Source of the DNA: a virus
Lineage: Duplodnaviria > Heunggongvirae > Uroviricota > Caudoviricetes
Direction: 5' to 3' (one strand)
Length of the DNA: 21,849 nucleotides
IMG/VR virus record: IMGVR_UViG_2693429728_000015
Span: 1 to 21,849 of that record
Positions within the stretch are counted from its first letter, which is position 1; every line of letters begins with the position of its first letter. A program made the position numbers and the translations under genes. Shown here in pieces: positions 87-18,571 of the stretch. The notes beneath the pieces are model-generated. The model saw nothing but the letters and a program-made list of their open reading frames with translations, made no database searches and was not told where the DNA came from.

Positions 87-1926
87 CGCAGGGGTCGGCC
101 CATTTGAGCTTCAGATAGGAACGTTTGAATTCCTTTCACAAAATACATCACATACTGAACGTGAACATTCCCACTTTGATCTTAAGGCCAAAAAGTATGC
201 AGGACTAATGATTTTTAGGGATAGCTTGAGAGTATTACCTTATGGTCGAGTAGATAATGATTTCTTCCAGATAGAAGAAAGACGTTCATGGAATGCAGGG
301 CGATATTATTGGTCTAATAGAAGGATTTTTGGTTATATTGGAATTACTCAATCCAGTAATAAAGAGCTGAAAGATAAGTCGGGGAGAGAGGGATTCATAA
401 GAAACCAGGCTGCAAGAGAACTGAAAACTATTATATCTAATTTGTTAACTGAACTTGCTGATAGATTTTTTGGTTCACGTTCTGATGACCGTAAAGAGCT
501 TTTAGAACAAGTTAAGCGTGAAAAAGAGTTAAGAAAATCTGCTCAACAACAAGCTCGAAAATCAACACAAAAAAGTTTTTCAGAAGCTTTGAAGAATCAG
601 ACACCAGTTCTTGATGCTTCCTTGGAGGCTGTTAAAAGGCTGAAAACTAAGCTTGATAAAACTGATGGTTCGTTAGATTTAAACTATCTTAAAATTATAG
701 ACAGTGATCTTACAAACTTAGATGCGTTGCGCAGTGAAATTAAAACGCCTATCAAACCTCCAAAACTTGGAATGTATGAAGAGAAATATAGAGACTACAG
801 AGATAAATTTAATGAGTTCTCTGCGTATATTCTACAAATGAAGTTAGCAATTAATAAACTTGATTCTGAATTAAATAAACTTGAGCCTTCATTGTCAGCG
901 AAAAATCACCTTGAAAAAAATCAAGGTATTATTAATTCTAAACTAACTAAGTTTAATAACACGATAGAGGAGAAGATACATTCTCTTTTAAAAAAATGGG
1001 CCGATGAAATAAAGGTTGATCGAAGTGATTATTATGCTAAAACTATATCAGTTGTTGATTCAATAGATAATGATTCACAAATTGAAAATGTGTTTAATTT
1101 GCTCGATAGTTTATATGTTGAGTCAGTTGATACCCTAACTTTCAAATATCAATCAATAATAAAAGGTCTCGATGGATTATTTGAAGGTATAAACTTAGAT
1201 TCAGCATTCTCATTATCTGAAGAAGAACGCTCATATTTTGAAGAAAAAGCTAAAAGTTTAAACGCGCTTGCACAGTTAGGTATTAGTGTTGAGATAATAT
1301 CTCATGAACTTGAAGAAATGGATTCTATGGTAACCAGAGGACTAAACTCTCTTCCTACTTCTGTAAAAGAACACCCTGGTTTTTCATTGGCGTTAAATGC
1401 TCACAGATCGCTTACTCAACAAATACGTTTCTTATCACCTTTGAAAATATCAGGTTATCAATCCAGGCAGAGAATAACTGGAAAAAATATCATGGATTAT
1501 GTCCTGAAGTTCTTTGGGGAGCGTTTCGAACGGCAACGAATAACTATTGAATTTAGTGAAGAGTTTAAGCAAATCGCAATAACAGATATACCATCAAGGA
1601 TCTATCCTGTTTTTACTAATATTATCAACAATGCAATGTATTGGGTCAGTCTGTCAAATAATAGGCTCATAAAGATTGGTTTTGTGAATTCTTTGGTTAT
1701 CATAGCAAATTCTGGTCCGGCAATTGATACCGATGATATCCCGCGACTATTTGAACTATTTTATAGCAAAAGAGCAAATGGACATGGGGTAGGTCTGTAT
1801 CTATGTCGAGAAAACCTTGCTGTTGCACATCATAAAATATGGTATTCAGAACCTGATGAAGGCGATAACTATTTAATAAAAGATGGCGCTAATTTTGTGA
1901 TCCAGTTCAATGGAGTGGAGTTCTAA
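87..1926 (+). pseudogene. 3' portion of a histidine-kinase-like (GHKL) ATPase gene, with its 5' part removed by the IS3 insertion
   Basis: The reading frame is open from the IS3 boundary (AGVGPFELQIGTFEF...LMIFRDSLRVLPYG), so the annotated ATG at 208 is internal. A long K/E/L-rich helical middle region follows. The C-terminus has an H-box-like ISHELEEM (His codon 1303-1305), an N-box NIINNAMYW, a G1-like SGPAIDTDD, FELFYSKR and a G2-like GHGVGLYLCRENL. Confidence 0.7.
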
Positions 1927-1927
1927 T

Positions 1928-3676
1928 ATGACAGTGGCAAATTATAATTCTCTTGTCCAGAAAACTTTCTGCGAAAATGCAATTCGTTCCGTTGTCATGA
2001 TTGATGACGATTTTCTGACGTATTCTGAATCAATCAGGGCGTTGAATAACGAAGTTGATTTAGACTACAACAAAATTGACTCATCTAAACGAGCCGCTAC
2101 TCTTGAGAGCTTTTTTCAATCTAAAAATATGATTTGTGATGTTGACAATGGTTCTGTTAATTTCGATGTGGATCGGATTAGAAAATCAGATCTTATTATT
2201 GTAGATTATCATCTTGATAATAATGCACCTGATAAAACACTTAAACTATTACAAGATTTGAAAGGCTCCGATCATTTAAATATGATTGTAATATATACTA
2301 GAGAGAATTTAGAAACGGTTTGGATGCAGATATCATCGACTCTCAAAGGTGCTCTGGATATCAACAGCTTGATCATTGACTACGATAATGAAGATGTCCA
2401 AAGTTATTGGGAAGACGTTGTATTACCGAACTTAAATGATAATGGTAATAAAGCTCTCACAAGAGATGAAACAATAGCCTATATTAAAGACAGTAAGCCT
2501 TGTAGAAGAATTAAAAGATTAATACATGATGATGCTGTGTTGGAGGATCAAAAGGATAAAAACTTCATTGCAAAAATGATTGCAGAATATGCTGTGTCTA
2601 GAAATGCAATTATTTCTAGCAACACATCTGGCAATGTCATTCGGGGTGATGAAAGCGGAGTAAAATGGATTCAATGTGGTAATATCTTTGTCTCCCTATT
2701 TCATAAGGTTCAAGATGATCATGAAAACGATGGAGATAGGATTTGGCAAACTCTCAATGATTCTCTCATTGAATGGAAACCATCTTATTATCAGTTAATA
2801 AAATCTGAAATTCAGAATGCAATCGAAGCTGAGGCTTTATCTTTTGTAAATCATTTGGCTAACGATCATTACGGTCAAGCTGCGTGGTTAAATGAGATAT
2901 TAAAATCAGACTCGCCTGATATTAGATGTAGAAATATTGACTTTGTATTTGGTAATTTATCAGAAGAGCTTTATCAAAGACTTAAAAATAATAATACGCT
3001 GGATGAATTTATCAAAAGTGTTTTTGATAGCTATTCAAATGAATACGCTAACAGCGGAGTTGCTGCATTGCTCCAATATTGCTCTTCAAAAATGGATCTG
3101 CCATCAAATAATGATACTTATCACGAAATGTATCATGCTTTAAATATGAATTTGTCTTCAAAGAATTTTGAAGATGGTCATATTTCTACTGGCACTATTT
3201 TCTTTGATACAGAGTCGAACAAATGGTATTTATGTGTATCTGCGGCATGTGATTTGGTTCCTACTCAGGGTAACGACCCTCACCATGTAAGATTAAGTCC
3301 GCACAGGCTCATTAAAGTTCTGGAGCTTTTTAACGCCAGTCAGAGTAAAGCATTGCCATTTGCTGAACATTCGAAATATATATATGTAATGCATAAAAAT
3401 CAAAGAAAATATCTCTCTATTTTCGAAGGGGATAAAACGCTTCCTGTTGTTGATTATATGGTGGTGTTGAATCATGGAACAACAGTTGATGGCGAAGAAA
3501 AAAATATTATTTCTGCCGTGTTTTTAAGTAATATGGATGGCAACGTGCAAAATGTTCCTGTCCGACTCAAACTTAAATCTCAACTGAGAACTGGTTATGC
3601 AGAAAGATATCAGGCTATAGCGTCTCAGTATAGCTCAAGGATTGGTGTGGATTATGTATCAATGATGCTACCATAA
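1928..3676 (+). CDS. Receiver(REC)-like domain protein with a roughly 450-aa uncharacterised C-terminal region (putative effector)
   Basis: GGAG lies 7 nt upstream of the ATG at 1928, 2 nt after the upstream stop. An alternative ATG at 1910 overlaps the upstream gene. The N-terminus shows receiver hallmarks: acidic pocket VVMIDDD, candidate phospho-acceptor LIIVDYHLD (Asp codon 2204-2206) and a VIYT threonine about 31 aa later. I recognise no domain in the remainder (for example WYLCVSAACDLVP). Confidence 0.65.
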   Translation: MTVANYNSLVQKTFCENAIRSVVMIDDDFLTYSESIRALNNEVDLDYNKIDSSKRAATLESFFQSKNMICDVDNGSVNFDVDRIRKSDLIIVDYHLDNNAPDKTLKLLQDLKGSDHLNMIVIYTRENLETVWMQISSTLKGALDINSLIIDYDNEDVQSYWEDVVLPNLNDNGNKALTRDETIAYIKDSKPCRRIKRLIHDDAVLEDQKDKNFIAKMIAEYAVSRNAIISSNTSGNVIRGDESGVKWIQCGNIFVSLFHKVQDDHENDGDRIWQTLNDSLIEWKPSYYQLIKSEIQNAIEAEALSFVNHLANDHYGQAAWLNEILKSDSPDIRCRNIDFVFGNLSEELYQRLKNNNTLDEFIKSVFDSYSNEYANSGVAALLQYCSSKMDLPSNNDTYHEMYHALNMNLSSKNFEDGHISTGTIFFDTESNKWYLCVSAACDLVPTQGNDPHHVRLSPHRLIKVLELFNASQSKALPFAEHSKYIYVMHKNQRKYLSIFEGDKTLPVVDYMVVLNHGTTVDGEEKNIISAVFLSNMDGNVQNVPVRLKLKSQLRTGYAERYQAIASQYSSRIGVDYVSMMLP

Positions 3677-4201: not shown

Positions 4202-5431
4202 TTAGGCTACCAGAGCATTTGATCTTTGAGCTTGAACGTAATCACTCCACCATTGCATCAAACTCTGTCGCTCTATCAGATATTCTGCACGATTGTATGC
4301 TGCGATAATTTCATCTTTTTTCGAGTGGGCAAGCGCTGCCTCAAGAACTTCAGCTCTGAATTTACCAGACTCCTCTGCCGCTGTTCGTGCAATAGAACGC
4401 ATACCGTGAGCTACAAGCTCGCCTCCGAACCCCATTCGGATGATAGCTGCGTTGGCTGTTTGTTCATGCATATGATTAAGAGGCGCTTTTATGCTGGGGA
4501 AAACCCATTCTCTATGCCCACTTATTGATTTCATTAATTCAAGGATGCGCAAAGCTTCTTTACTCAAAGGAACTTTGTGAAGCTTTTTCATTTTCATGAA
4601 ATCAGCAGGAATGTTCCAAATGCTGTTGGTTGTATCAATATCAGACCACCTTGCGCGAACGGCTTCACCCGGACGAACCCATGTCAACAATTGCCATTCA
4701 ATTAGCATACGTGTTTCCAACCGGATTGACGCATTCGTCAAAGATTCCATAAACCTTGGCAATTCGCTTGGGGGAAGGGCAGGCATATTTTGCTTTTTTG
4801 GTTTACTGAATCTTTGACCAAGGTTGTCAGCCGGGTTGAACTCAATAAGTTCTTCAGTAGCTGCCCACCGGAAGATTTCATTCAGACGTGAAATGATACG
4901 GCGTAGAGTTTCCAATACGCCTCGTTGCTCAATAGGATCAAGGTGTTGTTTTAAGAGCTTAGGTCGGATCTCATTGATAGGGACATTACCCAGACCGGGA
5001 AAGACATTTCTCTCTAAGCTGCGCCAGATGTCTGCTGCATGGTCTTGTGAGATACCTGATGTCTTTACCTTCTCATCTAACCATTTCCGCGCTACGGCTT
5101 GGAGAGTGTGCTCAGTAGCACTCTTTAATGCCTTCGCCTTATCGTTGTTATGGATTTGGGGATCAACACCATTTGCCAGAAAGGAGAGATATTCATCACG
5201 TAAGGCTCTGGCTCTTGCAAGGGTAAGGTGAGGATATGTCCCAAGGCTCATTTTGGTTCTTTTCTTGCTCACTGGTACTGCATACCTGAAATACCAATTT
5301 TTCTTGCCTCCTTTCGCCAAAGGAGCGATTCGTAGAATCAGACCATCACCGTCAAACAAGTTGATTTCTTTATCGGCTGGCTTGGTGCTTTTGATTTCAG
5401 TGTCAGTGAGCTTCTTAGCGATTTTTGCCAT
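4202..5431 (-). CDS. P4-type (tRNA/tmRNA-associated) tyrosine integrase
   Basis: The N-terminus MAKIAKKLTDTEIKSTKPADKEINLFDGDGLILRI is typical of P4-like integrases. The C-terminus has ...VRPGEA..., HGMRSIARTA and AYNRAEYL (catalytic Arg, His-x-x-Arg and Tyr). Overall it resembles CP4-57 IntA as I remember it. I prefer the ATG at 5429-5431 (GAGGG upstream) to the ORF-track start at 5473, which has no Shine-Dalgarno sequence. Confidence 0.9.
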   Translation of the reverse strand: MAKIAKKLTDTEIKSTKPADKEINLFDGDGLILRIAPLAKGGKKNWYFRYAVPVSKKRTKMSLGTYPHLTLARARALRDEYLSFLANGVDPQIHNNDKAKALKSATEHTLQAVARKWLDEKVKTSGISQDHAADIWRSLERNVFPGLGNVPINEIRPKLLKQHLDPIEQRGVLETLRRIISRLNEIFRWAATEELIEFNPADNLGQRFSKPKKQNMPALPPSELPRFMESLTNASIRLETRMLIEWQLLTWVRPGEAVRARWSDIDTTNSIWNIPADFMKMKKLHKVPLSKEALRILELMKSISGHREWVFPSIKAPLNHMHEQTANAAIIRMGFGGELVAHGMRSIARTAAEESGKFRAEVLEAALAHSKKDEIIAAYNRAEYLIERQSLMQWWSDYVQAQRSNALVA

Positions 5432-5528
5432 TTTGGGACCCTCGGTTTTTGGACCCTTCTTAATGGGTCCCATTCAGGGTGCCATAACTCGTAGTTCTCA
5501 GCAATTCTCACTGGACGACAATAGACGT

Positions 5529-5561
5529 AAAAAAGCCCGCAGAGCTTGTGCTGTGTGGGCT
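5529..5561 (-). terminator. Rho-independent terminator immediately downstream of the ssrA 3' fragment
   Basis: The minus strand reads AGCCCACA-loop-TGCGGGCT (one mismatch) followed by TTTTTT. Confidence 0.5.
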
Positions 5562-5596
5562 TAGTAGACTTCATTGAACTTCAAACAACTAAAAAG

Positions 5597-5641
5597 TGGT
5601 GGAGCTGGCGGGAGTTGAACCCGCGTCCGAAATTCCTACAT
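5597..5641 (-). repeat. ssrA: 45-bp copy of the 3' end of ssrA (tmRNA T-arm and acceptor, ending CCA): attachment-site junction between two integrated elements
   Basis: The minus strand reads ATGTAGGAATTTCGGACGCGGGTTCAACTCCCGCCAGCTCCACCA, identical to the E. coli tmRNA 3' end as I recall it. Similarity stops abruptly at 5642, where AT-rich sequence begins, so this is a fragment and not the gene. Confidence 0.85.
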
Positions 5642-5764
5642 ACTAATAATATATCTTTAAAATCAAAATATTCTATTATTTATCAATGTATTATGTTTAT
5701 GTGGTGTTAAGGGGTTTATATGGGTTTTAGTTCTCTGCCGCCAAAATGCAGCCAAAAAAATTGA

Positions 5765-5794
5765 ATGGTAAAACGCCAGTTCGTTGAACTGGCG
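5765..5794 (-). terminator. Rho-independent terminator ending the int-dut/dcd-like-thyX-like transcription unit
   Basis: A perfect 9-bp stem, CGCCAGTTC / GAACTGGCG (5774-5794), has a 3-nt loop. On the minus strand TTTTACC follows, 11 nt after the stop at 5805. Confidence 0.7.
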
Positions 5795-5804
5795 AGATCT
5801 TGTC

Positions 5805-6572
5805 TTATTGTTTTATTATCTTAACGTGCGCCGTTCCTCCATTGACTTTTTCGAAATCTTGGAACAAGGCAGGGGCATCTTGAGTTACAATATCGTAAAG
5901 TTTTTCTGAAACTGTTCTCATTTCATAGTCACCCTGTATTGCTCCTCTCATTTCGAAGAAGTGTCGAATTGCGCGAGCATTTGCTGTGACGATTATTTTT
6001 GTCTCGGTTGCATTAGGCAATATAGAGCGAGAAGCGCTTCTTAGGGCCCGCATTTTTTCTTTTTTGTTCTCATACGATTGGTTTTCACGGATTTTTTTCA
6101 AGGATTGCTTATAAAAATCCAGACTACTTTCAATATGTTGGCACCATGACTTAAACAATTCTGGGTCATTTTTTACTTCTATAGGGGCTACGAATTCAGC
6201 ATCGGATTCATCATGATACTGTTGGGATAACTGGCTATATGAAAAACCAGCTCTATGCCGAACTAGCTGGTGTGTAAATGCACGAGATACCCCAGTAATT
6301 AAAAAGGTCCAGTTCAAATGTTCTAAGACACTTTCATGCCCTTGAATAATTAAATTGTTGATATATTGACTTGTAGTCCGTGGAGACTGCTTATCCTCTC
6401 CAAAAGACATATAACATAGCCTGCCAGCGGCCTCTACCAGAAGCTCAGCTTCGGTCGCCTGCCCTTTGCGAACCCATTGCAATGATGATGTGTTTAAAAA
6501 ATCATCAAAAACATTACTTTCAAATGAAGGGTGTGATATGCATTTTACTGATAAATCAGAGATTTTTATCAT
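5805..6572 (-). CDS. Divergent ThyX-like protein (flavin-dependent thymidylate synthase fold)
   Basis: ThyX signature blocks are present: AAGRLCYMS, QGHESVLEH, THQLVRHRAGFSYSQLSQQY (compare the RHR...S....SxRY motif) and ARAIRHFFEMRG. GGGAG lies 5 nt upstream of the ATG, and the start is 2 nt after the upstream stop. The gene is AT-rich relative to the phage backbone. Confidence 0.75.
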   Translation of the reverse strand: MIKISDLSVKCISHPSFESNVFDDFLNTSSLQWVRKGQATEAELLVEAAGRLCYMSFGEDKQSPRTTSQYINNLIIQGHESVLEHLNWTFLITGVSRAFTHQLVRHRAGFSYSQLSQQYHDESDAEFVAPIEVKNDPELFKSWCQHIESSLDFYKQSLKKIRENQSYENKKEKMRALRSASRSILPNATETKIIVTANARAIRHFFEMRGAIQGDYEMRTVSEKLYDIVTQDAPALFQDFEKVNGGTAHVKIIKQ

Positions 6573-6574
6573 TT

Positions 6575-7360
6575 TTACTCCCGTATAGCTTTTGGGGTGC
6601 TTACTTTAGCATCAACCTTTGGTTCGTTTGATTTAGCATTTTTTAGTAATTCAACGGTGCTTTTTAGGCTATTTATTTCATTTTGTTGAACTTTTATTGT
6701 TAATTCAAGATCTTTTGTACTACTGACATTACTGGATACTATTTGAAATAAGAAAGGAATTGCTAGGGTTATCAACGTTAGCATTAAGGCTGCTATCGCA
6801 ATTATAAAGCCAGTTTTTTTCGCAATGATTTTATTGATTTCTTTCGGAAGTCGTTTATCAAGTCCTGCAAAATCCTTTCCCATTCTAGAAAGTTGATCAT
6901 CATCCAATTTATTTACGATTTTTCCTTGGTAACCTTTAGTCGGTATTATTGTTTTAAATAATAACATTCGGGCTACTGCAGAATTTTGTGTCAATGAGAA
7001 TGGTTCTTTTGACATATTTACAAGATATATTGAAATTATGCCATTATATCCAGGGTCAATATGCCCTGGATTCGTCATGATAATTCCATTTTTTGATAGT
7101 GTGTTTCTTGGGAATATTACACCAGCTAAATTTTTTGCAAGTTGGAATTTTTCATTTAACTCTAATATTACAGTTTCCCCTGGCATCAGGATATGGTTGT
7201 TACGTGTTTTTTTATTGTCTTGACAGTCTGGTATATGTATTGTTTTTACAGAGAGATCAATGCTTGCAGATTGAACTTTAAATGTTCCATTTAATACCGT
7301 TAATGGATCAAAAATGTTGCCTCGCTGAATTTCATCATTGATTTCTATTTCAGACAGCAT
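6575..7360 (-). CDS. dUTPase/dCTP-deaminase (Dut/Dcd) superfamily protein with a C-terminal transmembrane helix and a coiled-coil tail
   Basis: Blocks align with E. coli Dut and Dcd: SASIDLSV, MPGETVIL, FPRNTLSKNGI and GHIDPGYNGIISIYLVNMSKEPFSLTQNSAVARMLLF. A hydrophobic segment, GFIIAIAALMLTLITLAIPFLFQIV (about nt 6737-6811), is followed by a heptad-like tail. AGGA lies 8 nt upstream of the ATG, 26 nt downstream of the int stop. Confidence 0.7.
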   Translation of the reverse strand: MLSEIEINDEIQRGNIFDPLTVLNGTFKVQSASIDLSVKTIHIPDCQDNKKTRNNHILMPGETVILELNEKFQLAKNLAGVIFPRNTLSKNGIIMTNPGHIDPGYNGIISIYLVNMSKEPFSLTQNSAVARMLLFKTIIPTKGYQGKIVNKLDDDQLSRMGKDFAGLDKRLPKEINKIIAKKTGFIIAIAALMLTLITLAIPFLFQIVSSNVSSTKDLELTIKVQQNEINSLKSTVELLKNAKSNEPKVDAKVSTPKAIRE

Positions 7361-7386: not shown

Positions 7387-8400
7387 TTATAAATTAGCCA
7401 GAGGGTTTTTTATTACTGCATCTTCAAGATGCTCTGGGGAAAAATGTGCATAAATCATAGTCATTTTTATATCAGAGTGGCCTAAAATATCTCGTAAAAC
7501 CAAAATATTACCACCATTCATCATAAAATGGCTGGCGAATGTATGGCGCAGAACGTGGGTGCATTGGCCCTCTGGTAACTCAATGTCAGCTCGCTTTACT
7601 GCTCGTTCAAAGGCTTTTCTGCAAGGAGTGAATAACTTCCCTCTGTTCTTAGGGAGTTCGTCATACAGATCCTGAGATATCGGCACGGTACGGTTTTTCT
7701 TGCCCTTAGTCTTGGTATAGGTGATCCGGTATTTCGATAACTGATGGCCCTGCAGATTTTCGGCTTCACTCCAGCGCGCGCCGGTGGCCAGGCATATTTT
7801 TGCAATTAAAAGTAGACTGGGGCTTTGAGAATCAGCACAGGCATCCAGCAGACGTTTAATTTCTTCCGGGGTCAGGAACGCCAGTTCACCCTCAGCAATT
7901 TTAAATGTTGGCAGCCCGGCAAGCGGATTGGGGGCTGACCAGTGGCCCAACTTTTTCAGTGTGCCAAAAACAGATGATAGGTTGCGCTGTTCAAGGTTTA
8001 CAGTGCGGGGCTTAACGGGCGACATAAGCGTGCCCTCTTCATTTCGCACTTCACCTTTTAGCCGCGCTTCTCGGTATTTAGTAAAATCACCGGCTGTCAG
8101 CTCTGAGGCGATGGGATCGCCTAGACCATTACAGATAATTCTAAGTTTCGCCATGAGGCGCTTGGGGTCTGCGAGTGTTTGACCATACAGGGAATACCAC
8201 TGCTCAATTAATTCTGATAGGTGTCGCCGATCTTCCTTTTCCCCCAGCCATGGCTTTTTGTTCACTTCTTCCATTGTGAAGCTTTCAAAAGCAATGGCTT
8301 CGCCTTTCGTAGCAAATTGCTTACGCACGCGCTTGCCATTGCGTCCATGGGGATAGCACTCGCACAACCATTTACCGTTTGGCTGTTTTCTGACAGTCAT
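7387..8400 (-). CDS. int: P2/186-type prophage tyrosine integrase
   Basis: It is 337 aa, the same length as P2 Int, and collinear with it as I recall it (GRNGKR.RK.F..K.EA.AFE; LATGARWSEAE; HVLRHTFASHFMMNGG; MIYAHFSPEHL). Confidence 0.92.
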   Translation of the reverse strand: MTVRKQPNGKWLCECYPHGRNGKRVRKQFATKGEAIAFESFTMEEVNKKPWLGEKEDRRHLSELIEQWYSLYGQTLADPKRLMAKLRIICNGLGDPIASELTAGDFTKYREARLKGEVRNEEGTLMSPVKPRTVNLEQRNLSSVFGTLKKLGHWSAPNPLAGLPTFKIAEGELAFLTPEEIKRLLDACADSQSPSLLLIAKICLATGARWSEAENLQGHQLSKYRITYTKTKGKKNRTVPISQDLYDELPKNRGKLFTPCRKAFERAVKRADIELPEGQCTHVLRHTFASHFMMNGGNILVLRDILGHSDIKMTMIYAHFSPEHLEDAVIKNPLANL

Positions 8401-8402
8401 GT

Positions 8403-9035
8403 TTAGATACTCTTTATTACTTTGACTGCACGCCCAATAACTTCCACATCATCAGTAGAGCACTCGAAAGACGCTTCATCTTGATTTACTACAATCTTAT
8501 TGCCGGGAATCCGCATGATTTTTGCAACAATAATCATTCCATCAATATTGATAAGCCAGAATCCATTGCTGACCTGTTTAATTGATTTATCGATGAGATA
8601 ACAATTAGTAGGGGTTTCTAAGAACATCAATTCTTCATAATCTGCAGGTAATATGCTGTGGTCTAGGAAAATCTCTTCATCAATACTGAGTTGTCCATTC
8701 TCCAGGGTTCCTTTAGGAATAGCTGGAGTTATGAGTTTGGATAACGGTTTAATTGCTTGTTTGTTCTCATTATGAGAACTTTTCTCAGGCTCAGCTCCTC
8801 CTTTCATGCTTCCCTGTCCTGTAGCTAACCAAAGCAACGAAACACCGGTTTCTAGTGCGCACTGAATTATCCAGTCAGCAGGAAAGCTGTCACGTAACAC
8901 TCTGTTTGCCATAGTGCTTTTTGAGACATTCAGGTGCTCGCTTAATGCCTGCTTAGTTGTGAATCCATAAGCCTCAAGCAGCCTTCCAATAGCTGCCTTA
9001 CCTCCCGTATCGGAACCCATTCTGATGTTTAACAT
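8403..9035 (-). CDS. cI: 186-type CI immunity repressor
   Basis: An N-terminal helix-turn-helix (GFTTKQALSEHLNVSKSTMANRVLRDSFPADWIIQCALETGVSLLWLATGQG) is typical of the phage CI repressor family. The gene is divergent from the early operon and sits directly upstream of int. GGAGA lies 6 nt upstream of the ATG. Confidence 0.8.
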   Translation of the reverse strand: MLNIRMGSDTGGKAAIGRLLEAYGFTTKQALSEHLNVSKSTMANRVLRDSFPADWIIQCALETGVSLLWLATGQGSMKGGAEPEKSSHNENKQAIKPLSKLITPAIPKGTLENGQLSIDEEIFLDHSILPADYEELMFLETPTNCYLIDKSIKQVSNGFWLINIDGMIIVAKIMRIPGNKIVVNQDEASFECSTDDVEVIGRAVKVIKSI

Positions 9036-11530: not shown

Positions 11531-11829
11531 CAAGGGCAGTGCGTATCCATCAATTAAAAATTGCACCTAAGTATTTCAACGCTGTGGTTGCAGGTCAAAA
11601 GACGGCTGAACTTCGTAAAGACGATCGTGGCTATAAAGTTGGTGATGTTCTTTCTCTTTGCGAATGGAAGCATGGCGTATTTACGGGTAGGGAATGGGCC
11701 GCTGTTATCTCTCATGTGCTTCCGGTTAATGACGTCATGGCAGTTTCAGAACAATGGGTGATGCTATCAATTCGCCCATTAACCCCATTAGAAGCTTTAG
11801 GATATGTTATTGCAGGAGGTGCTGTATGA
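11527..11829 (+). CDS. ASCH/DUF3850-like small protein
   Basis: ATGA start/stop overlap at 11527. The N-terminus [35 protein letters not shown] resembles the ASCH-fold DUF3850 family as I recall it. Confidence 0.6.
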
Positions 11830-12683
11830 GTACCATCCTGAAATGGGCGGGTAATAAAACTGCCATTATGTCCGAACTGAAAAAACATCTTCCTGCTGGC
11901 CCGCGACTGGTTGAACCTTTCGCGGGTTCCTGTGCTGTGATGATGGAGACGGATTACCCCAGCTATCTGGTTGCGGATATTAATCCTGATTTAATCAACC
12001 TCTATAAAAAGGTTGCTGCTGATTGCGAGGCGTTTATATCTCGTGCCAGAGCTTTATTTGAGGAAGCAAACAGGGAGTTGGCTTATTACAACATAAGGCA
12101 GGAGTTTAATTACTCCACTGAAATTACTGATTTCATGAAAGCGGTATATTTCCTGTATCTCAATCGTCATGGTTACCGTGGGTTATGTCGTTATAACAAG
12201 AGCGGGCATTTCAACATTCCATACGGTAATTATAAAAATCCGTATTTCCCTGAAAAAGAAATTCGCGCATTTGCAGAGAAAGCCCAGCGAGCAACGTTTA
12301 TCTGCGCCAGCTTTGATGAAACGCTGGCGATGCTGCAGGTGGGGGATGTGGTGTATTGCGATCCGCCTTATGACGGTACGTTTTCCGGCTATCACACTGA
12401 TGGTTTCACTGAAGATGACCAGTATCACCTGGCATCCGTTCTTGAACATCGGTCATCAGAAGGACATCCGGTCATTGTTTCTAACAGTGACACATCCCTG
12501 ATCCGTTCGCTGTATCGAAATTTTACTCACCACTACATCAAGGCAAAACGCAGCATCGGTGTAGCAGCTGGTGAGAGTAAATCTGCAACAGAAATCATCG
12601 CTGTTTCCGGGCCGCGCTGCTGGGTGGGATTTGATCCTTCGCGTGGCGTGGATAGTTCTGCCGTGTACGGAGTGCGTGCATGA
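11826..12683 (+). CDS. dam: Dam-type DNA adenine (GATC) methyltransferase
   Basis: [11 protein letters not shown]...[10 protein letters not shown]...[10 protein letters not shown]...YCDPPY, which includes the DPPY catalytic motif. At about 285 aa it is similar in size to E. coli Dam. ATGA overlap with the upstream gene. The ORF-track start at 11754 is an upstream extension. Confidence 0.9.
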
Positions 12684-16062: not shown

Positions 16063-16674
16063 ATGGATTTAGTCTTTAAAGTTCTGGCTTCGTTGGGTGG
16101 GGTGTCTTTTGTTGCATCTGGCATATTTGTTTGGATCGGGAAAGTTTATTTAGAAAGATATAAGTCGCGGCTAAACAAAGATATTGCTGAATTTCAATCA
16201 CAACTGAGTGCAACTAATGAAAGAATAAAGGCTAAGTTAGACAATTCTGTTTATGTAACGAAAGCGTATTTTGATAAGGAGTTATCAGCATATAGTCTCA
16301 TTTGGAATTCGATGTTTGAAACCAGAGAAAGCGTGCTTAAGCTGAGGCCTGCGCTGGATCATGTTGACCCCAACGAACCATTTGAAGAGAGAAAATTTAG
16401 AAGGTTGAAAGTTTTTTCTGATGCATTTAACACTTTTGTTACAAGTGTTGAATCTAACAAACCGTTCATCTCACCAGAGGTTTATATAATCTTGGACCGT
16501 TTCCGGAAGGAATGCCTTTCAGAGTCAATATCGTTTAAGCATAGCGATCCAGAATTTGACGGGCAAAATTATTGGAAAGAGGCGGAGTTGAACCATACAA
16601 CCATCATCAAGCTTTTTGATGAGACGTGTGATGCAATTCGAGACAGGATGCACACATTAACTGTGGTTACGTAG
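16063..16674 (+). CDS. Single-pass membrane protein of unknown function (prophage cargo, or moron)
   Basis: The N-terminus has a hydrophobic helix, LVFKVLASLGGVSFVASGIFVWIG. The rest is helical and charged. The gene has its own promoter and terminator and is AT-rich relative to the backbone. Confidence 0.7.
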   Translation: MDLVFKVLASLGGVSFVASGIFVWIGKVYLERYKSRLNKDIAEFQSQLSATNERIKAKLDNSVYVTKAYFDKELSAYSLIWNSMFETRESVLKLRPALDHVDPNEPFEERKFRRLKVFSDAFNTFVTSVESNKPFISPEVYIILDRFRKECLSESISFKHSDPEFDGQNYWKEAELNHTTIIKLFDETCDAIRDRMHTLTVVT

Positions 16675-16766
16675 GTTTCCAAAAAGTCTCGATGCCCGCT
16701 TTGGAGATTGTGCATGTCTATGCCGCATGAATCCGCATGATCGTTTGAGGATCGTTTTAGCTGAGG

Positions 16767-16790
16767 CCCGCCAGGAGTGGCGGGATTTTG
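16767..16790 (+). terminator. Rho-independent terminator after the 203-aa gene
   Basis: CCCGCC (16767-16772), loop AGGAGT, GGCGGG (16779-16784), then ATTTTG. Confidence 0.55.
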
Positions 16791-16834
16791 CTTATGTCAT
16801 GCAGGCGCATGAAAACCGCTACATAAAGCGGGCA

Positions 16835-16853
16835 GGCGTGGCGGGGATACGAG
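16835..16853. other. Candidate cos site (19-nt cohesive-end sequence of a P2/186-family phage)
   Basis: GGCGTGGCGGGGATACGAG shares its first 13 nt with the 186 cohesive end as I recall it (GGCGTGGCGGGGAAAGCAT). The following GCGCGCT matches the sequence just inside the P2/P4 left end (GGCGAGGCGGGGAAAGCACTGCGCGCTGA). Confidence 0.65.
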
Positions 16854-16870
16854 CGCGCGCTCATTACTTT

Positions 16871-16890
16871 TATAATTCTAGGGTTATAAT
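16871..16890 (+). promoter_or_regulatory. Possible promoter(s) for the KAP NTPase gene
   Basis: Two perfect TATAAT hexamers (16871-16876 and 16885-16890) lie 30-45 nt upstream of the ATG. I could not identify a convincing -35 element. Confidence 0.3.
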
Positions 16891-16918
16891 ACGGGGCTGT
16901 CTTTCTAGGAGAAAACAC

Positions 16919-18571
16919 ATGTCCTTAGAGTTTATCAAAGAACAGTTGTCAGATTTTATCTCATCTACAGAACCAGAAGTAATGGCTATACAGGGTGAAT
17001 GGGGAATTGGTAAAACCTATACTTGGAATACGTTCCTAAAAGATAATAAAGATAAGGTTGCATTTAATAGATATAGTTATGTCTCTCTTTTTGGTATAAA
17101 TTCACTAGATTCTTTAAAGTATTCTATTTTTGAGAATGCAATTACAAAGGAATATATTGGAAATAAACCTGATTTGGAGACAGCAACAACAAACGCAAGT
17201 GGACTTTTTGAATCATTTTCTCGAAAAGCAGCAGGTTTGTTAAAAGAAGTTCCTGTTGTAAAAAACTTCTCTACGACACTTGAAGCAATGTCATTTCTGA
17301 CCGTTTCTAAAATGATTGTAGTAATAGATGACTTAGAAAGGCGTGGCAAAAATTTAGATGTTAAAGATGTTTTAGGGCTAGTATCTCTATTAAAAGAGCA
17401 GAAGGATTGTAAGGTGGTTCTATTGCTTAACAATGGCACAGCTAGTATGGAGGATTATTCTACTTATAAAGAAAAGGTCATTGATAGAGATATCACTTAC
17501 AATCCAACACCAGAAGAATGCGCAGATATAGCCTATAAAGGTGATTCTCATGTTTATAACTTGTTAAGTAAATATTCCATTTCTTTAGGTATCAAGAATA
17601 TTCGAATCTTAAAAAAGATAGAACGTTTTTTCGTGTCCTTAATACCAAATATTATAGGTGATGTTGAGACAATTTCAAATGAAGTTGCGCATTCATTAAC
17701 TCTGTATTGTTGGAGCCATTACGGATTTTCTCCAGAGGGAGATGTGCCATCACTAGAATATATTAGGGGAGTGAGGAATATATATACTTATAATGACAAG
17801 GAAGAAGGCCATGAGAAAATCTGGCTTAATACCTTGCTTAAATATGGATATAGAAAAACGAATGATCTTGATGAGGTTCTTATTGATATGGTTAGATATG
17901 GCTATCTTGATAAGAGCAGTTTCCAAAGACAAATAAGCCTAAGGAATGAGGAGATTACGCGTGATAATAAACGAGGTTCCTTATCTGAGGCATGGCAGTT
18001 CTTTCATAATTCATTTGATGACAATCAAAATCAGGTTGTTGACAAGCTATATCAAGCGGTGGTTGATGGGATGAAGTATGTGACTCCAAGTGATTTAGAT
18101 AATGTTGTCGGACTATATAGGGATTTCGGAGAGAATGCTAAGGCGAGTGAATTGATTGAACAGTTTATTAATTATGGTAACGATGCTCTAAAGGAATATG
18201 TTCAATCTATTTATGTGAATGTTCATCCCGTAAGAGATACTGAGTTGTTGTCAAAAATTCAAGCCTATTCTAAGATTATAAATATTGATGGTTCAATATA
18301 TGATGTTCTTAAGAAATTATCAGGTCAGAATGGTTGGTCTGATAGACATGAGGAAATATTGGATGCTGCTTCAGTAGATGACTACTATCAATTATTTAAA
18401 AATGTCATTCTTGATGGTGGTGATTCAATAATAGCTACGGCGCTTAAATTCGGAAATTTTAGTAATGGTTCTGATAGAATGAATCGTATAGGGAAAAAGG
18501 CAAGGGATGCCTTGATAAGAATTGGAGATGAATCGGCGATTAATAAAATGCGTGTAAGGCGATTTTTGTGA
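16919..18571 (+). CDS. KAP-family-like P-loop NTPase, 550 aa (prophage cargo; candidate anti-phage protein)
   Basis: AGGAG lies 8 nt upstream of the ATG at 16919. Walker A is IQGEWGIGKTY (nt 16994-17017). Walker B is MIVVIDDLERRGKNLDVKDVLGLVSLLKE (nt 17312 onward), the DDL(D/E)R signature of KAP NTPases. This is the most AT-rich gene in the window. The ORF-track start at 16727 runs through the terminator and cos and is rejected. Confidence 0.75.
   Translation: MSLEFIKEQLSDFISSTEPEVMAIQGEWGIGKTYTWNTFLKDNKDKVAFNRYSYVSLFGINSLDSLKYSIFENAITKEYIGNKPDLETATTNASGLFESFSRKAAGLLKEVPVVKNFSTTLEAMSFLTVSKMIVVIDDLERRGKNLDVKDVLGLVSLLKEQKDCKVVLLLNNGTASMEDYSTYKEKVIDRDITYNPTPEECADIAYKGDSHVYNLLSKYSISLGIKNIRILKKIERFFVSLIPNIIGDVETISNEVAHSLTLYCWSHYGFSPEGDVPSLEYIRGVRNIYTYNDKEEGHEKIWLNTLLKYGYRKTNDLDEVLIDMVRYGYLDKSSFQRQISLRNEEITRDNKRGSLSEAWQFFHNSFDDNQNQVVDKLYQAVVDGMKYVTPSDLDNVVGLYRDFGENAKASELIEQFINYGNDALKEYVQSIYVNVHPVRDTELLSKIQAYSKIINIDGSIYDVLKKLSGQNGWSDRHEEILDAASVDDYYQLFKNVILDGGDSIIATALKFGNFSNGSDRMNRIGKKARDALIRIGDESAINKMRVRRFL

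What the first reader, a model, noticed from the sequence alone, without database searches (positions are those of the whole stretch)
6216..6260. The ThyX signature motif has the substrate-binding Arg replaced by Gln, plus a one-residue insertion
- The motif reads RHRAGFSYSQLSQQY. Canonical ThyX has RHR-x7-S-x-R-Y; M. tuberculosis ThyX, as I recall it, reads RHRHFSYSQLSQRY.
- The conserved Arg of SxRY, which contacts the dUMP phosphate in ThyX structures, is Gln here (codon 6219-6221).
- The RHR-to-Ser spacing is one residue longer.
- The protein may therefore bind a different nucleotide or act as a sensor or non-canonical enzyme, and not as a thymidylate synthase.
Basis: partly seen in the sequence, partly recalled or inferred. 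Interest (0 to 1): 0.55.

Follow-up and report, generated by a model that had tools for sequence, protein, structure and literature searches.

The report
Gln-variant ThyX paired with membrane DCD-like protein
This prophage gene looks like a flavin-dependent thymidylate synthase, but it belongs to a widespread, undescribed branch that always has Gln in place of a catalytic Arg and always sits next to a membrane-anchored, deaminase-dead dCTP-deaminase-like gene, and the pair travels with mobile elements and defence islands, which makes it a candidate anti-phage module, not a housekeeping enzyme.

Summary
**Observation.** It is confirmed. Bases 6216-6260 (-) encode RHRAGFSYSQLSQQY in a 255-aa ThyX-family ORF (5805-6572).

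**The insertion is ordinary.** Of 101 nearest cluster representatives, 69 have the same RHR-x8-S spacing and keep Arg.

**The Arg-to-Gln change is the real signal.**
- Gln is invariant in 174 relatives, which form one clade. [quoted passage not shown]
- The other 22 of 24 known FAD, dUMP and catalytic positions examined are kept; a 23rd, Tm H178, also varies among canonical ThyX.

**The Gln clade has a fixed partner.**
- In 55 of 60 genomic loci from many phyla, a dCTP-deaminase-fold gene lies nearby. It is usually directly upstream, often with a 4-nt overlap.
- Here the partner is 6575-7360. It lacks the deaminase Glu and the triphosphate-binding motifs, and carries a transmembrane helix and a coiled-coil tail.
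- None of 101 Arg-type control loci has this partner.

**Context.**
- The pair is accessory: 2 of 5426 complete E. coli genomes carry it.
- It is low-GC cargo after cI-int of a P2/186-like prophage. Elsewhere it lies beside integrases, an ICE and known defence genes.
- PADLOC does not list it, and RefSeq calls it thyX.

**Verdict.** It is a neo-functionalised ThyX paralogue in a two-gene, probably anti-phage, nucleotide-directed module. The mechanism is not resolved.

The parts
5805..6572 (-). Gene for a 255-aa Gln-type ThyX paralogue
   Evidence: ORF list. Pfam Thy1 2.6e-48. TIGR02170 154.8 bits. AF2 model pLDDT 88.7. The best fold match is Mtb ThyX, TM 0.82-0.88.
6216..6260 (-). ThyX signature motif RHRAGFSYSQLSQQY (residues 105-119)
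   Evidence: Translation and alignment to Mtb ThyX.
6219..6221 (-). Codon CAG for Gln118, at the position of Tm Arg90 / Mtb Arg107
   Evidence: Gln in 100% of 174 clade members. Arg in 100% of 20 canonical sequences.
6246..6251 (-). Ala108-Gly109, the site of the extra residue (RHR-x8-S spacing). Gly109 is invariant in the clade.
   Evidence: The same spacing with Arg occurs in 69 of 101 nearest cluster representatives and in 78 of 80 metagenome control loci (one other is x7, one lacks the motif).
6048..6059 (-). Glu172 and Arg175, invariant only in the Gln clade. They are candidates for compensating or retuning the lost Arg.
   Evidence: Clade-specific conserved positions. Their spatial relation to Gln118 was not tested.
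6575..7360 (-). Gene for the 261-aa partner. It has an N-terminal dCTP-deaminase/dUTPase-fold domain, a conserved LSxDFxxxxxR motif, one transmembrane helix and an extracytoplasmic coiled-coil tail. It ends 2 nt before the ThyX start codon.
   Evidence: Pfam DCD 5.9e-15 and dUTPase 1e-12. It scores below the NCBIfam dCTP_deam and dut cut-offs. Foldseek matches DCD-DUT enzymes, TMt 0.6-0.8. The model shows a single long helix, residues 167-244.
7025..7027 (-). Tyr112 of the partner, at the position of the dCTP deaminase catalytic Glu (E. coli Glu138)
   Evidence: The alignment to 4xjc and 2qxx reads 'isiYlvn' against 'itlElfn'. The family has Thr, Cys or Tyr here and never Glu.
6749..6805 (-). 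Predicted transmembrane helix of the partner (residues 186-204, IIAIAALMLTLITLAIPFL)
   Evidence: Kyte-Doolittle 19-residue maximum of 2.65. A comparable hydrophobic segment is present in all 45 family members examined.
5774..5794 (-). Terminator-like hairpin (9-bp stem, 3-nt loop, then UUUU), starting 11 nt after the ThyX stop codon
   Evidence: Sequence. RNA fold -12.7 kcal/mol, z = -4.0. The consensus scanner did not list it because the T-run is short.
7387..9035 (-). P2/186-type integrase (7387-8400) and CI repressor (8403-9035), directly upstream on the same strand. With the pair they form a likely cI-int-DCD-ThyX lysogenic transcription unit.
   Evidence: Pfam Int_N/Phage_integrase and Phage_CI_repr/Phage_CI_C. 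There is a 26-nt gap and no strong promoter match between int and the partner gene. The same gene order occurs in five IMG/VR contigs.

Best explanation
**What it is.**
- The ORF encodes a member of a distinct, monophyletic, strongly conserved branch of the ThyX (flavin-dependent thymidylate synthase) family.
- In this branch the Arg of the S-x-R-Y loop is always Gln.
- The branch occurs as a two-gene operon with an upstream gene for a membrane-anchored protein of the dCTP-deaminase fold. That partner cannot deaminate, because it has no catalytic Glu, and it lacks the usual triphosphate-binding motifs.
- The pair is an accessory, horizontally mobile module.
- In this window it is low-GC cargo at the end of the cI-int lysogenic operon of a P2/186-like E. 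coli prophage. It would therefore be expressed in the lysogen.

**Most likely function.**
- It is a nucleotide-directed conflict module, an anti-phage or superinfection defence. It is not the thymidylate supply of the cell or the phage.
- The ThyX-like protein still binds FAD and a (deoxy)uridylate-like nucleotide. Its handling of the nucleotide at the phosphate/Tyr-lid step is altered.
- The cytoplasmic DCD-like domain, held at the inner membrane as a probable trimer, binds a deoxypyrimidine nucleotide.
- Together they would alter, deplete or sense the deoxypyrimidine pool on infection.

**Shown.**
- The clade and its invariant Gln.
- Retention of all other catalytic residues.
- The exclusive coupling to the partner.
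- The partner's missing catalytic residues and its membrane anchor.
- The mobile and defence-rich contexts.

**Inferred.**
- Expression from the lysogenic promoter.
- The defence role.
- Any particular chemistry.
For: **The Gln clade.**
- Gln is invariant in 174 clade members. Arg is invariant in 18 canonical sequences plus Tm and Mtb ThyX.
- In a neighbour-joining tree all 22 Gln tips form one clade with no Arg sequence inside.
- 22 of the 24 functional positions examined (Tm S30, H53, E58, R74, Q75, R78, H79, R80, S88, Y91, R147, N163, R165, R174 and others) are kept. The other non-conserved one, H178, also varies among canonical ThyX.
- 71 of 255 columns are invariant across 20 sequences from several phyla.

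**Why the Arg matters.**
- R90A in T. maritima ThyX strongly slows dUMP-triggered consumption of the flavin carbinolamine (PMC8316439).
- The Arg is described as a conserved direct dUMP ligand (PMC3498832, PMC6514825).

**The partner gene.**
- It was found in 55 of 60 Gln-type genomic loci. Three loci lack upstream sequence.
- In 46 loci it lies directly upstream. In 24 of those the genes overlap by 4 nt.
- It is absent from 22 x7-Arg loci. It is also absent from the 80 metagenome control loci, 78 of them x8-Arg and 44 with at least 1.2 kb upstream.
- The partner has no Glu138 equivalent. Motifs II and IV are not conserved and motif V is absent.
- A transmembrane helix is present in all 45 members examined.

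**Accessory and mobile.**
- 2 of 5426 complete E. coli genomes carry it.
- GC is 31-39% against 47-51% in int.
- In the related phages RE2010 and Cartapus the same slot holds a RES-domain gene instead.
- The cI-int-DCD-ThyX order at a contig end recurs in five IMG/VR prophage contigs.
- No cultured phage carries a Gln-type copy; the best hit is 40% identical.

**Defence and mobile-element neighbours.**
- An AvcD-type dCTPase lies downstream on the same strand in L015, L028 and L064. Other neighbours are HmaB/C, PD-T4-6, MzaA, a methyl-directed REase, DRT UG29, CARF and PDC-S41.
- In Citrobacter the neighbours are GmrSD, an AAA_15/21 ATPase and an R-M system, or an ICE edge.
- In a marine element the pair lies directly after a P4-type integrase, and the element also carries an ABC-3C-like system.
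Against: - No experiment exists, and the defence role rests on association only.
- Enrichment is modest: roughly 10 of 113 immediate neighbours are strong PADLOC hits.
- In Pseudomonas the pair sits among housekeeping genes with no visible mobile element.
- PADLOC has no model for either protein. That is compatible with novelty, but also with the pair not being a defence system.
- The ThyX component is unusually well conserved for a defence protein.
- It keeps every residue needed for flavin chemistry and scores above the curated thyX cut-off. It could therefore still make dTMP.
- The pathway order of a DCD-like enzyme followed by ThyX matches ordinary dCTP->dUMP->dTMP metabolism.
- I could not place Gln118, Glu172 and Arg175 in a ligand-bound tetramer.
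Confidence: 0.5

Rival explanations
1. It is an ordinary auxiliary thymidylate pathway. The DCD-like protein makes dUMP from dCTP or dUTP, and the ThyX protein is a working thymidylate synthase in which Gln is tolerated, perhaps compensated by the clade-specific Arg175. The pair would boost dTTP for an AT-rich element.
For: - The gene order matches the metabolic order.
- All other ThyX catalytic and FAD residues are kept.
- TIGR02170 scores above its cut-off.
- New invariant Arg175 and Glu172 exist.
- Phages often carry ThyX: 1156 phage records match.
Against: - The partner lacks the deaminase Glu and the phosphate-binding motifs II, IV and V, and scores below the dCTP_deam and dut cut-offs.
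- It is membrane-anchored in every member examined.
- The module sits in the lysogenic operon, not the replication operon.
- It is absent from cultured lytic phages.
- From established knowledge, hosts such as E. coli and Pseudomonas already have ThyA, Dcd and Dut.
- R90A cripples canonical ThyX (PMC8316439).
- Arg-type relatives never need this partner.
Confidence: 0.2
2. It is a changed-substrate C5-methylase or hydroxymethylase that makes a modified nucleotide (for example from dCMP, UMP, or a di- or triphosphate or nucleoside form). The product would serve DNA or nucleotide modification, or act as a toxic or signalling nucleotide. The DCD-like protein would deliver or bind that nucleotide. 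This would be analogous to T4 dCTPase plus dCMP hydroxymethylase, or to PolB in polyoxin synthesis.
For: - The only changed ligand residue lies in the nucleotide-binding loop.
- PolB shows that ThyX paralogues can shift substrate (PMC5954106); it is a fold match at TM about 0.63.
- The partner keeps the nucleoside-binding motif III (TNPGHIDPGY) but not the deaminase or triphosphate residues.
- Some loci add NUDIX-WGR, an unknown 325-aa protein, a PfkB kinase or an AvcD-type deaminase.
- Type IV or methyl-directed restriction genes lie next door in two loci.
Against: - Arg174/Arg209, which recognises and activates uracil O4/N3, is invariant. This argues against a cytosine substrate.
- No kinase, glycosyltransferase or polymerase partner is conserved; 140 Pfam families were seen across 113 neighbours and none in more than 3.
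- There is no direct evidence for any product.
Confidence: 0.2
3. It is a decaying or inactive ThyX remnant carried passively by the prophage, and the Gln is a disabling mutation.
For: - Loss of a catalytically important Arg (PMC8316439).
- Redundancy with host ThyA.
Against: - The Gln is fixed across a clade spanning Proteobacteria, Acidobacteria, Actinobacteria, Cyanobacteria, Verrucomicrobia and Bacteroidota.
- Sequences across those phyla are 45-60% identical, with 71 invariant columns.
- The reading frames are intact, and translational coupling to a co-evolving partner is conserved.
Confidence: 0.03

Closest known systems
Canonical ThyX / flavin-dependent thymidylate synthase (M. tuberculosis Rv2754c type, PDB 3GWC/2AF6; T. 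maritima TM0449)
   Same: - Same fold: TM 0.82-0.88 to Mtb ThyX.
- Sequence match: E 7e-42 over the aligned region; Foldseek gives 32-35% identity.
- RHR motif, catalytic Ser and Tyr, Arg147/Arg174 equivalents and FAD-binding residues are all present.
- The long helical insert is shared with the Mtb and Corynebacterium type.
   Different: - The Arg of S-x-R-Y is replaced by invariant Gln.
- There are clade-specific invariant residues: W88, G109, E172, R175, G214 and D215.
- It is obligately paired with a membrane DCD-like gene.
- Its distribution is accessory and mobile, not housekeeping.
x8-spacing, Arg-containing ThyX clade (RHRAG[FWM]xYSQLSQRY), abundant in soil and peat metagenomes and including intein-bearing forms
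   Same: - These are the nearest relatives, 40-50% identical.
- They share the RHR-x-G...S spacing.
   Different: - They keep Arg.
- None of the 80 control loci has the DCD-like partner.
PolB, the ThyX paralogue that methylates UMP/dUMP in polyoxin biosynthesis (PDB 4P5A)
   Same: It is the precedent for a neo-functionalised ThyX paralogue in a genome that has another thymidylate synthase (PMC5954106). The fold is the same.
   Different: - The relation is only distant: TM about 0.63 and 18-19% identity.
- PolB lies in an antibiotic gene cluster, not a two-gene mobile module.
- I did not examine the PolB motif.
dCTP deaminase / bifunctional DCD-DUT / trimeric dUTPase superfamily (partner protein)
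   Same: - Same beta-barrel fold.
- Motif I Asp and the motif III '(T)NPGHIDPGY' are conserved.
   Different: - There is no catalytic Glu.
- Motifs II and IV are not conserved and motif V is absent.
- It has an added transmembrane helix and coiled-coil tail.
- It scores below the curated family cut-offs.
Nucleotide-pool anti-phage systems: AvcD/dCTP deaminase defence (PADLOC 'dCTPase'), and DefensePredictor DS-3 with a ThyA-like thymidylate synthase
   Same: - The concept is the same: pyrimidine-metabolism enzymes re-used for defence.
- An AvcD-type gene lies directly downstream of the pair in three loci.
- DS-3 shows that a thymidylate-synthase-fold enzyme can be a validated defence component.
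   Different: - AvcD is a zinc cytidine-deaminase-fold enzyme, unrelated to the DCD fold.
- The DS-3 enzyme is ThyA-like (PF00303), not ThyX.
- Neither window protein hits any PADLOC model.

Membership tests
ThyX / FDTS (Pfam PF02511, TIGR02170) | Sequence and fold match above curated thresholds | tested here: met
   Pfam 164.8 bits against a cut-off of 24.8. TIGR02170 154.8 against 87.9. Foldseek TM 0.82-0.88 to Mtb ThyX.
ThyX / FDTS (Pfam PF02511, TIGR02170) | RHR-X7(-8)-S signature | tested here: met
   RHR + 8 residues + Ser116. The x8 spacing is the majority state among the nearest relatives.
ThyX / FDTS (Pfam PF02511, TIGR02170) | Arg of the extended motif S-x-R-Y (Tm Arg90 / Mtb Arg107), a direct dUMP ligand and partner of the Tyr lid | tested here: not met
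   Gln118 here and in all 174 clade members. The role of the Arg is taken from PMC3498832, PMC6514825 and PMC8316439.
ThyX / FDTS (Pfam PF02511, TIGR02170) | Other FAD-binding and catalytic residues (Tm H53, R78, H79, R80, S88, Y91, R147, N163, R165, R174) | tested here: met
   All are invariant in the clade.
ThyX / FDTS (Pfam PF02511, TIGR02170) | Thymidylate synthase activity (dUMP to dTMP; thyA complementation) | not testable with these tools
   This needs genetics and biochemistry.
ThyX / FDTS (Pfam PF02511, TIGR02170) | Housekeeping role as a genome's thymidylate synthase | tested here: not met
   Present in 2 of 5426 complete E. coli genomes. It is prophage, ICE or island cargo. From established knowledge, E. 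coli relies on ThyA.
dCTP deaminase (TIGR02274) - partner gene 6575-7360 | Family score above the curated cut-off | tested here: not met
   56.2 bits against a cut-off of 92.8.
dCTP deaminase (TIGR02274) - partner gene 6575-7360 | Catalytic Glu (E. coli Glu138) and the Ser/Arg triphosphate-binding motif | tested here: not met
   Tyr112 here, and Thr, Cys or Tyr in the family. 'G[KR]SS..R' is replaced by 'PP(S/N)x(V/L)S'.
dCTP deaminase (TIGR02274) - partner gene 6575-7360 | DCD/dUTPase beta-barrel fold | tested here: met
   Foldseek best matches are 4xjc, 4a6a, 2qlp and 1xs1, E down to 8e-12.
Trimeric dUTPase (TIGR00576 / NF001862) - partner gene | Five conserved motifs, including the motif II Arg-Ser, the motif IV Arg/Gln and the C-terminal motif V | tested here: not met
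   Only the motif I Asp and motif III are conserved. The C-terminus is a transmembrane helix plus coiled coil. Scores are 40-45 bits against cut-offs of about 103.
Known anti-phage defence systems (PADLOC-DB v2, including dCTPase/AvcD and PDC candidates) | HMM match to any catalogued defence protein | tested here: not met
   No hit for either protein at E <= 0.01.
Anti-phage defence system (generic) | Protection against phage when expressed | not testable with these tools
   Only contextual evidence is available: defence and mobile-element neighbours and a prophage cargo slot.

The most novel reading that the evidence does not exclude
The pair is a previously undescribed two-gene anti-phage system.
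- A neo-functionalised flavin enzyme of the ThyX fold acts on, or is activated by, a deoxypyrimidine nucleotide in a new way. It might make a modified or toxic nucleotide, or burn NADPH when a phage-derived nucleotide binds.
- A deaminase-dead, membrane-anchored DCD-fold trimer serves as nucleotide sensor and/or membrane effector.
- This would be the first defence role for the ThyX fold.
- It would also be the first for a transmembrane dUTPase-superfamily protein.
Probability: 0.35. Interest if true: 0.8.

Novelty: new variant of a known kind. Interest (0 to 1): 0.62.

Why it matters
- Databases name this protein 'FAD-dependent thymidylate synthase' and its partner 'dCTP deaminase'. Both labels are probably wrong in function for a clade that spans many phyla.
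- If the pair is a defence module, it adds a new enzyme fold, and a new membrane-tethered nucleotide-binding protein, to the nucleotide-pool branch of bacterial immunity.
- ThyX is an antibacterial drug target with an unusual flavin-carbinolamine mechanism. A natural, invariant replacement of the Arg that tunes the Tyr lid is a ready-made probe of that mechanism.
- The module is only 1.6 kb and comes from E. coli, so the question can be tested directly.

Tried and rejected
**Literature.**
- Searches for ThyX with defence, dCTP deaminase, ThyX-like or paralogue, and the motif strings found no description of this clade or pair.
- The one promising lead was DefensePredictor's validated 'thymidylate synthase' defence domain. 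It turned out to be ThyA-like (PF00303) in a different five-gene system.
- The key mutagenesis paper on the extended ThyX motif (Ulmer 2008) and the folate-site paper are not held. The exact atom contacted by the Arg therefore stays unverified.

**Ideas tested and dropped.**
- PADLOC gives no hit for either protein.
- The insertion as a meaningful feature was rejected, because x8 spacing is common with Arg.
- His203 (Mtb) -> Gln213 as a second lesion was rejected, because that position also varies in canonical ThyX.
- A conserved third gene was rejected, because the neighbours are heterogeneous.
- The 325-aa gene after ThyX in the marine element is unrelated to the 325-aa F3 gene of the Acidobacteria variant.
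- F3 has no Pfam or PDB sequence match. A MazG-like 'EELGE...D' motif seen by eye was not confirmed.

**Technical limits.**
It was redone with database homologues.
- The consensus scanner missed the terminator hairpin, which I confirmed by folding.
- I could not compute distances in the models or build the tetramer, so the proposed Arg175 compensation is untested.
Full report
**1. The observation**

Bases 6216-6260 on the minus strand translate to RHRAGFSYSQLSQQY. These are residues 105-119 of a 255-aa ORF at 5805-6572 (-). The ORF is a clear ThyX-family protein:
- Pfam Thy1, E 2.6e-48.
- NCBIfam TIGR02170, 154.8 bits against a cut-off of 87.9.
- PHROG 'thymidylate synthase'.
- An AlphaFold model with pLDDT 88.7, whose best structural matches are M. 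tuberculosis ThyX at TM 0.82-0.88.

The HMMER alignment to Mtb ThyX shows 'rhragfsysqlsqqy' against 'rhr-hfsysqlsqry'.

**2. The two changes are not equally meaningful**

I searched 1.84 billion cluster representatives and read the motif in the best 150. Of 101 with a scorable motif:
- 69 have RHR-x8-S with Arg, typically RHRAG[FWM]xYSQLSQRY.
- 21 have x8 with Gln.
- 11 have x7 with Arg.

A metagenome scan seeded with the x8-Arg relatives returned 80 loci. Of these, 78 carry x8 with Arg, one carries x7 and one lacks the motif. The insertion is therefore the normal state of the nearest large ThyX clade and carries no functional signal.

The Gln is different:
- All 120 closest database proteins have it.
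- In an alignment of 174 such sequences against 18 canonical ThyX plus T. maritima and M. tuberculosis, the position is 100% Gln against 100% Arg. I checked my recalled T. maritima sequence against PDB 1KQ4.
- In a neighbour-joining tree the Gln sequences form a single clade with no Arg sequence inside. The tree has no bootstrap support.

**3. What else changed in the enzyme**

Of 24 positions that I know from the ThyX literature to bind FAD or dUMP or to act in catalysis, 22 are conserved in the Gln clade. These include Tm S30, H53, E58, R74, Q75, R78, H79, R80, S88, Y91, R147, N163, R165 and R174. The exceptions are R90 and H178. H178 also varies among canonical enzymes.

The clade is under strong constraint, with 71 invariant columns in 20 sequences from several phyla. 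It has its own invariant residues that canonical enzymes lack: W88, G109, E172, R175, G214 and D215.

From papers I could read:
- The Arg is a conserved direct hydrogen-bond partner of dUMP (PMC3498832).
- It stabilises dUMP in the Mtb enzyme (PMC6514825).
- It hydrogen-bonds the hydroxyl of the Tyr lid, and R90A greatly slows the dUMP-triggered consumption of the flavin carbinolamine (PMC8316439).

An invariant Gln at this position is therefore expected to change catalysis or substrate handling, unless it is compensated, perhaps by Arg175. I could not test that geometry.

**4. The partner gene**

Two nucleotides upstream, on the same strand, lies a 261-aa ORF (6575-7360). It matches the dCTP-deaminase/dUTPase fold:
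- Pfam DCD, 5.9e-15.
- Foldseek best matches are bifunctional DCD-DUT enzymes.
- It scores below every curated NCBIfam cut-off.

Alignments to solved dCTP deaminases put Tyr112 where the catalytic Glu (E. coli Glu138) should be. In the family this position is Thr, Cys or Tyr and never Glu. The Arg/Ser of motif II and the Arg/Gln of motif IV are not conserved, and motif V is missing. The motif I Asp and 'TNPGHIDPGY' (motif III) are invariant.

After the barrel comes a conserved LSxDFxxxxxR motif. One long helix follows (residues 167-244 in the model). It contains a hydrophobic transmembrane stretch, found in all 45 family members examined, and then a heptad-like tail.

The partner is thus a membrane-anchored protein, probably trimeric. 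It likely still binds a deoxypyrimidine nucleoside moiety, but it cannot be a classical dCTP deaminase or dUTPase.

**5. The coupling is exclusive**

- In 60 Gln-type loci from one-per-species genomes, the partner was found in 55. Three of the remainder lack upstream sequence. The loci come from Gamma- and Alphaproteobacteria, Acidobacteriota, Actinomycetota, Cyanobacteria, Verrucomicrobiota, Bacteroidota and Myxococcota.
- In 46 loci the partner lies directly upstream. In 24 of those the genes overlap by 4 nt.
- None of 22 canonical x7-Arg loci has it.
- None of the 80 metagenome control loci has it, and 44 of those have at least 1.2 kb of upstream sequence.
- One retrieval pattern used the Gln motif itself, but that cannot create the association with the partner.
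- The partner evolves faster than the ThyX component: 50-65% against 77-80% identity in related prophages.

**6. Context**

The window is E. coli.
- The 1.8-kb module is present at more than 99% identity in only 2 of 5426 complete genomes. RefSeq annotates it there as 'thyX' and 'dCTP deaminase domain-containing protein'.
- It lies directly after the integrase and CI repressor of a P2/186-like prophage.
- There is a 26-nt gap and no strong promoter match before it. A good terminator hairpin follows it.
- Its GC content is 31-39%, against 47-51% in int.

Related prophages point the same way.
- Phages RE2010 and Cartapus match on both sides but carry a RES-domain gene in this slot.
- Five IMG/VR prophage contigs share the cI-int-DCD-ThyX order at a contig end.
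- No cultured phage has a Gln-type copy; the best hit is 40% identical.

Flanking genes elsewhere:
- They are highly heterogeneous: 140 Pfam families in 113 neighbours, none seen in more than three.
- They include many defence genes. An AvcD-type dCTPase lies downstream on the same strand in L015, L028 and L064. Others are HmaB/C, PD-T4-6, MzaA, a methyl-directed restriction enzyme, DRT UG29, CARF and PDC-S41.
- In Citrobacter the pair sits beside GmrSD, an OLD-like ATPase and an R-M system, or at the edge of an ICE.
- In a marine element it directly follows a P4-type integrase, and the element also carries an ABC-3C-like system.
- In Pseudomonas it is a bare two-gene insertion among housekeeping genes.
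- Seven Acidobacteria loci add a NUDIX-WGR protein and an unknown 325-aa protein, and three loci add a PfkB kinase.

**7. Interpretation**

Shown:
- A conserved, monophyletic ThyX branch with an invariant Gln.
- An exclusive, translationally coupled partner that is membrane-bound and lacks the deaminase residue.
- An accessory, mobile distribution.
- Defence-rich surroundings.

Inferred:
- The pair is expressed from the lysogenic operon.
- It acts as a nucleotide-directed conflict module, not as a thymidylate supply.

I put about 0.5 on that reading. The main rival (0.2) is that it is still a dCTP->dUMP->dTMP booster in which Gln is tolerated. The partner's missing catalytic and phosphate residues, its membrane anchor, the lysogenic position and the host's own ThyA, Dcd and Dut argue against this.

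A changed-substrate methylase that makes a modified nucleotide (0.2) overlaps with the defence reading. Retention of the uracil-activating Arg209 argues against cytosine as the base. A decaying pseudogene is excluded by the conservation.

**8. Comparison with what is known**

- The protein is a ThyX-family member by fold and most motif residues, but it fails the extended-motif Arg and the housekeeping criterion.
- The closest functional precedent is PolB, a substrate-shifted ThyX paralogue (PMC5954106).
- The closest conceptual precedents in immunity are the AvcD/dCTP-deaminase systems and the ThyA-like enzyme in DefensePredictor's DS-3. Neither is homologous to this pair.
- PADLOC has no model for either protein, and I found no paper on the pair.
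- I rate it a new variant of a known kind, with a fair chance of being a new defence system.

Noticed in passing
window 208-3676 (+), with integrase 4202-5473 (-): Two overlapping ORFs encode a histidine-kinase-like ATPase with a HEF_HK domain (572 aa) and a protein with the Response_reg_2 receiver domain (588 aa). They lie in a low-GC stretch next to a P4-type integrase (Arm-DNA-bind_3). This looks like a separate integrated island abutting the prophage end. PADLOC gives no hit.
   Followed up: partly
window 16063-18571 (+): A 203-aa ORF with no family match is followed by a 614-aa KAP-family P-loop NTPase that matches the PADLOC candidate PDC-S49 (E 4e-27). They sit between the replication region and the portal and terminase genes, which is the classical P2 old/tin cargo hotspot. 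This prophage therefore carries a second putative defence cargo.
   Followed up: partly
window 11754-12683 (+): A D12-class N6-adenine DNA methyltransferase gene lies just upstream of the gpA replication gene of the prophage.
   Followed up: no
L015 6833-8401, and the F6-cluster genes of L028 and L064: An AvcD-type anti-phage dCTP deaminase (PADLOC dCTPase, E 7e-153 for L015) lies downstream of the DCD-ThyX pair on the same strand in three unrelated genomes. This could be functional synergy or only island co-location.
   Followed up: partly
L006 779-2698; also L013, L014, L018, L025, L026, L051: A four-gene variant occurs in Acidobacteriota. The pair is joined, in varying order, by a NUDIX-WGR protein (PADLOC PDC-S07-like) and a 325-350-aa protein with no Pfam or PDB sequence match. 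By eye, that protein carries a MazG-like EELGE...D motif, which I did not confirm.
   Followed up: partly
L016, L024, L035 (gene directly after ThyX): A PfkB-family kinase gene lies immediately downstream of the Gln-type ThyX in three loci (Deltaproteobacteria, Nostoc, Myxococcales).
   Followed up: no
P0169, P0190, P0220 (proteins of 559-756 aa): Arg-clade ThyX relatives read 'RHRAG[FW][GA]YC...', with a long insertion five residues after RHR, within the x8 spacer ahead of the signature Ser. This is consistent with inteins inside the ThyX motif.
   Followed up: no
L215-L222 (marine metagenome contigs): A small integrative element has the order P4-type integrase, DCD-like gene, Gln-ThyX, an unknown 325-aa protein, then a Phage_GPA replication protein. 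It also carries an AAA_23 + MC2 + CTD6 (ABC-3C-like) system. Outside the integrase are a PLD-helicase-DUF3427 protein and a NERD protein.
   Followed up: no
window 5560-5754: The about 195 bases just beyond the ThyX terminator match all 5426 complete E. coli genomes. This stretch is probably the conserved chromosomal or attachment-site flank of the prophage. No tRNA gene is present in the window.
   Followed up: no
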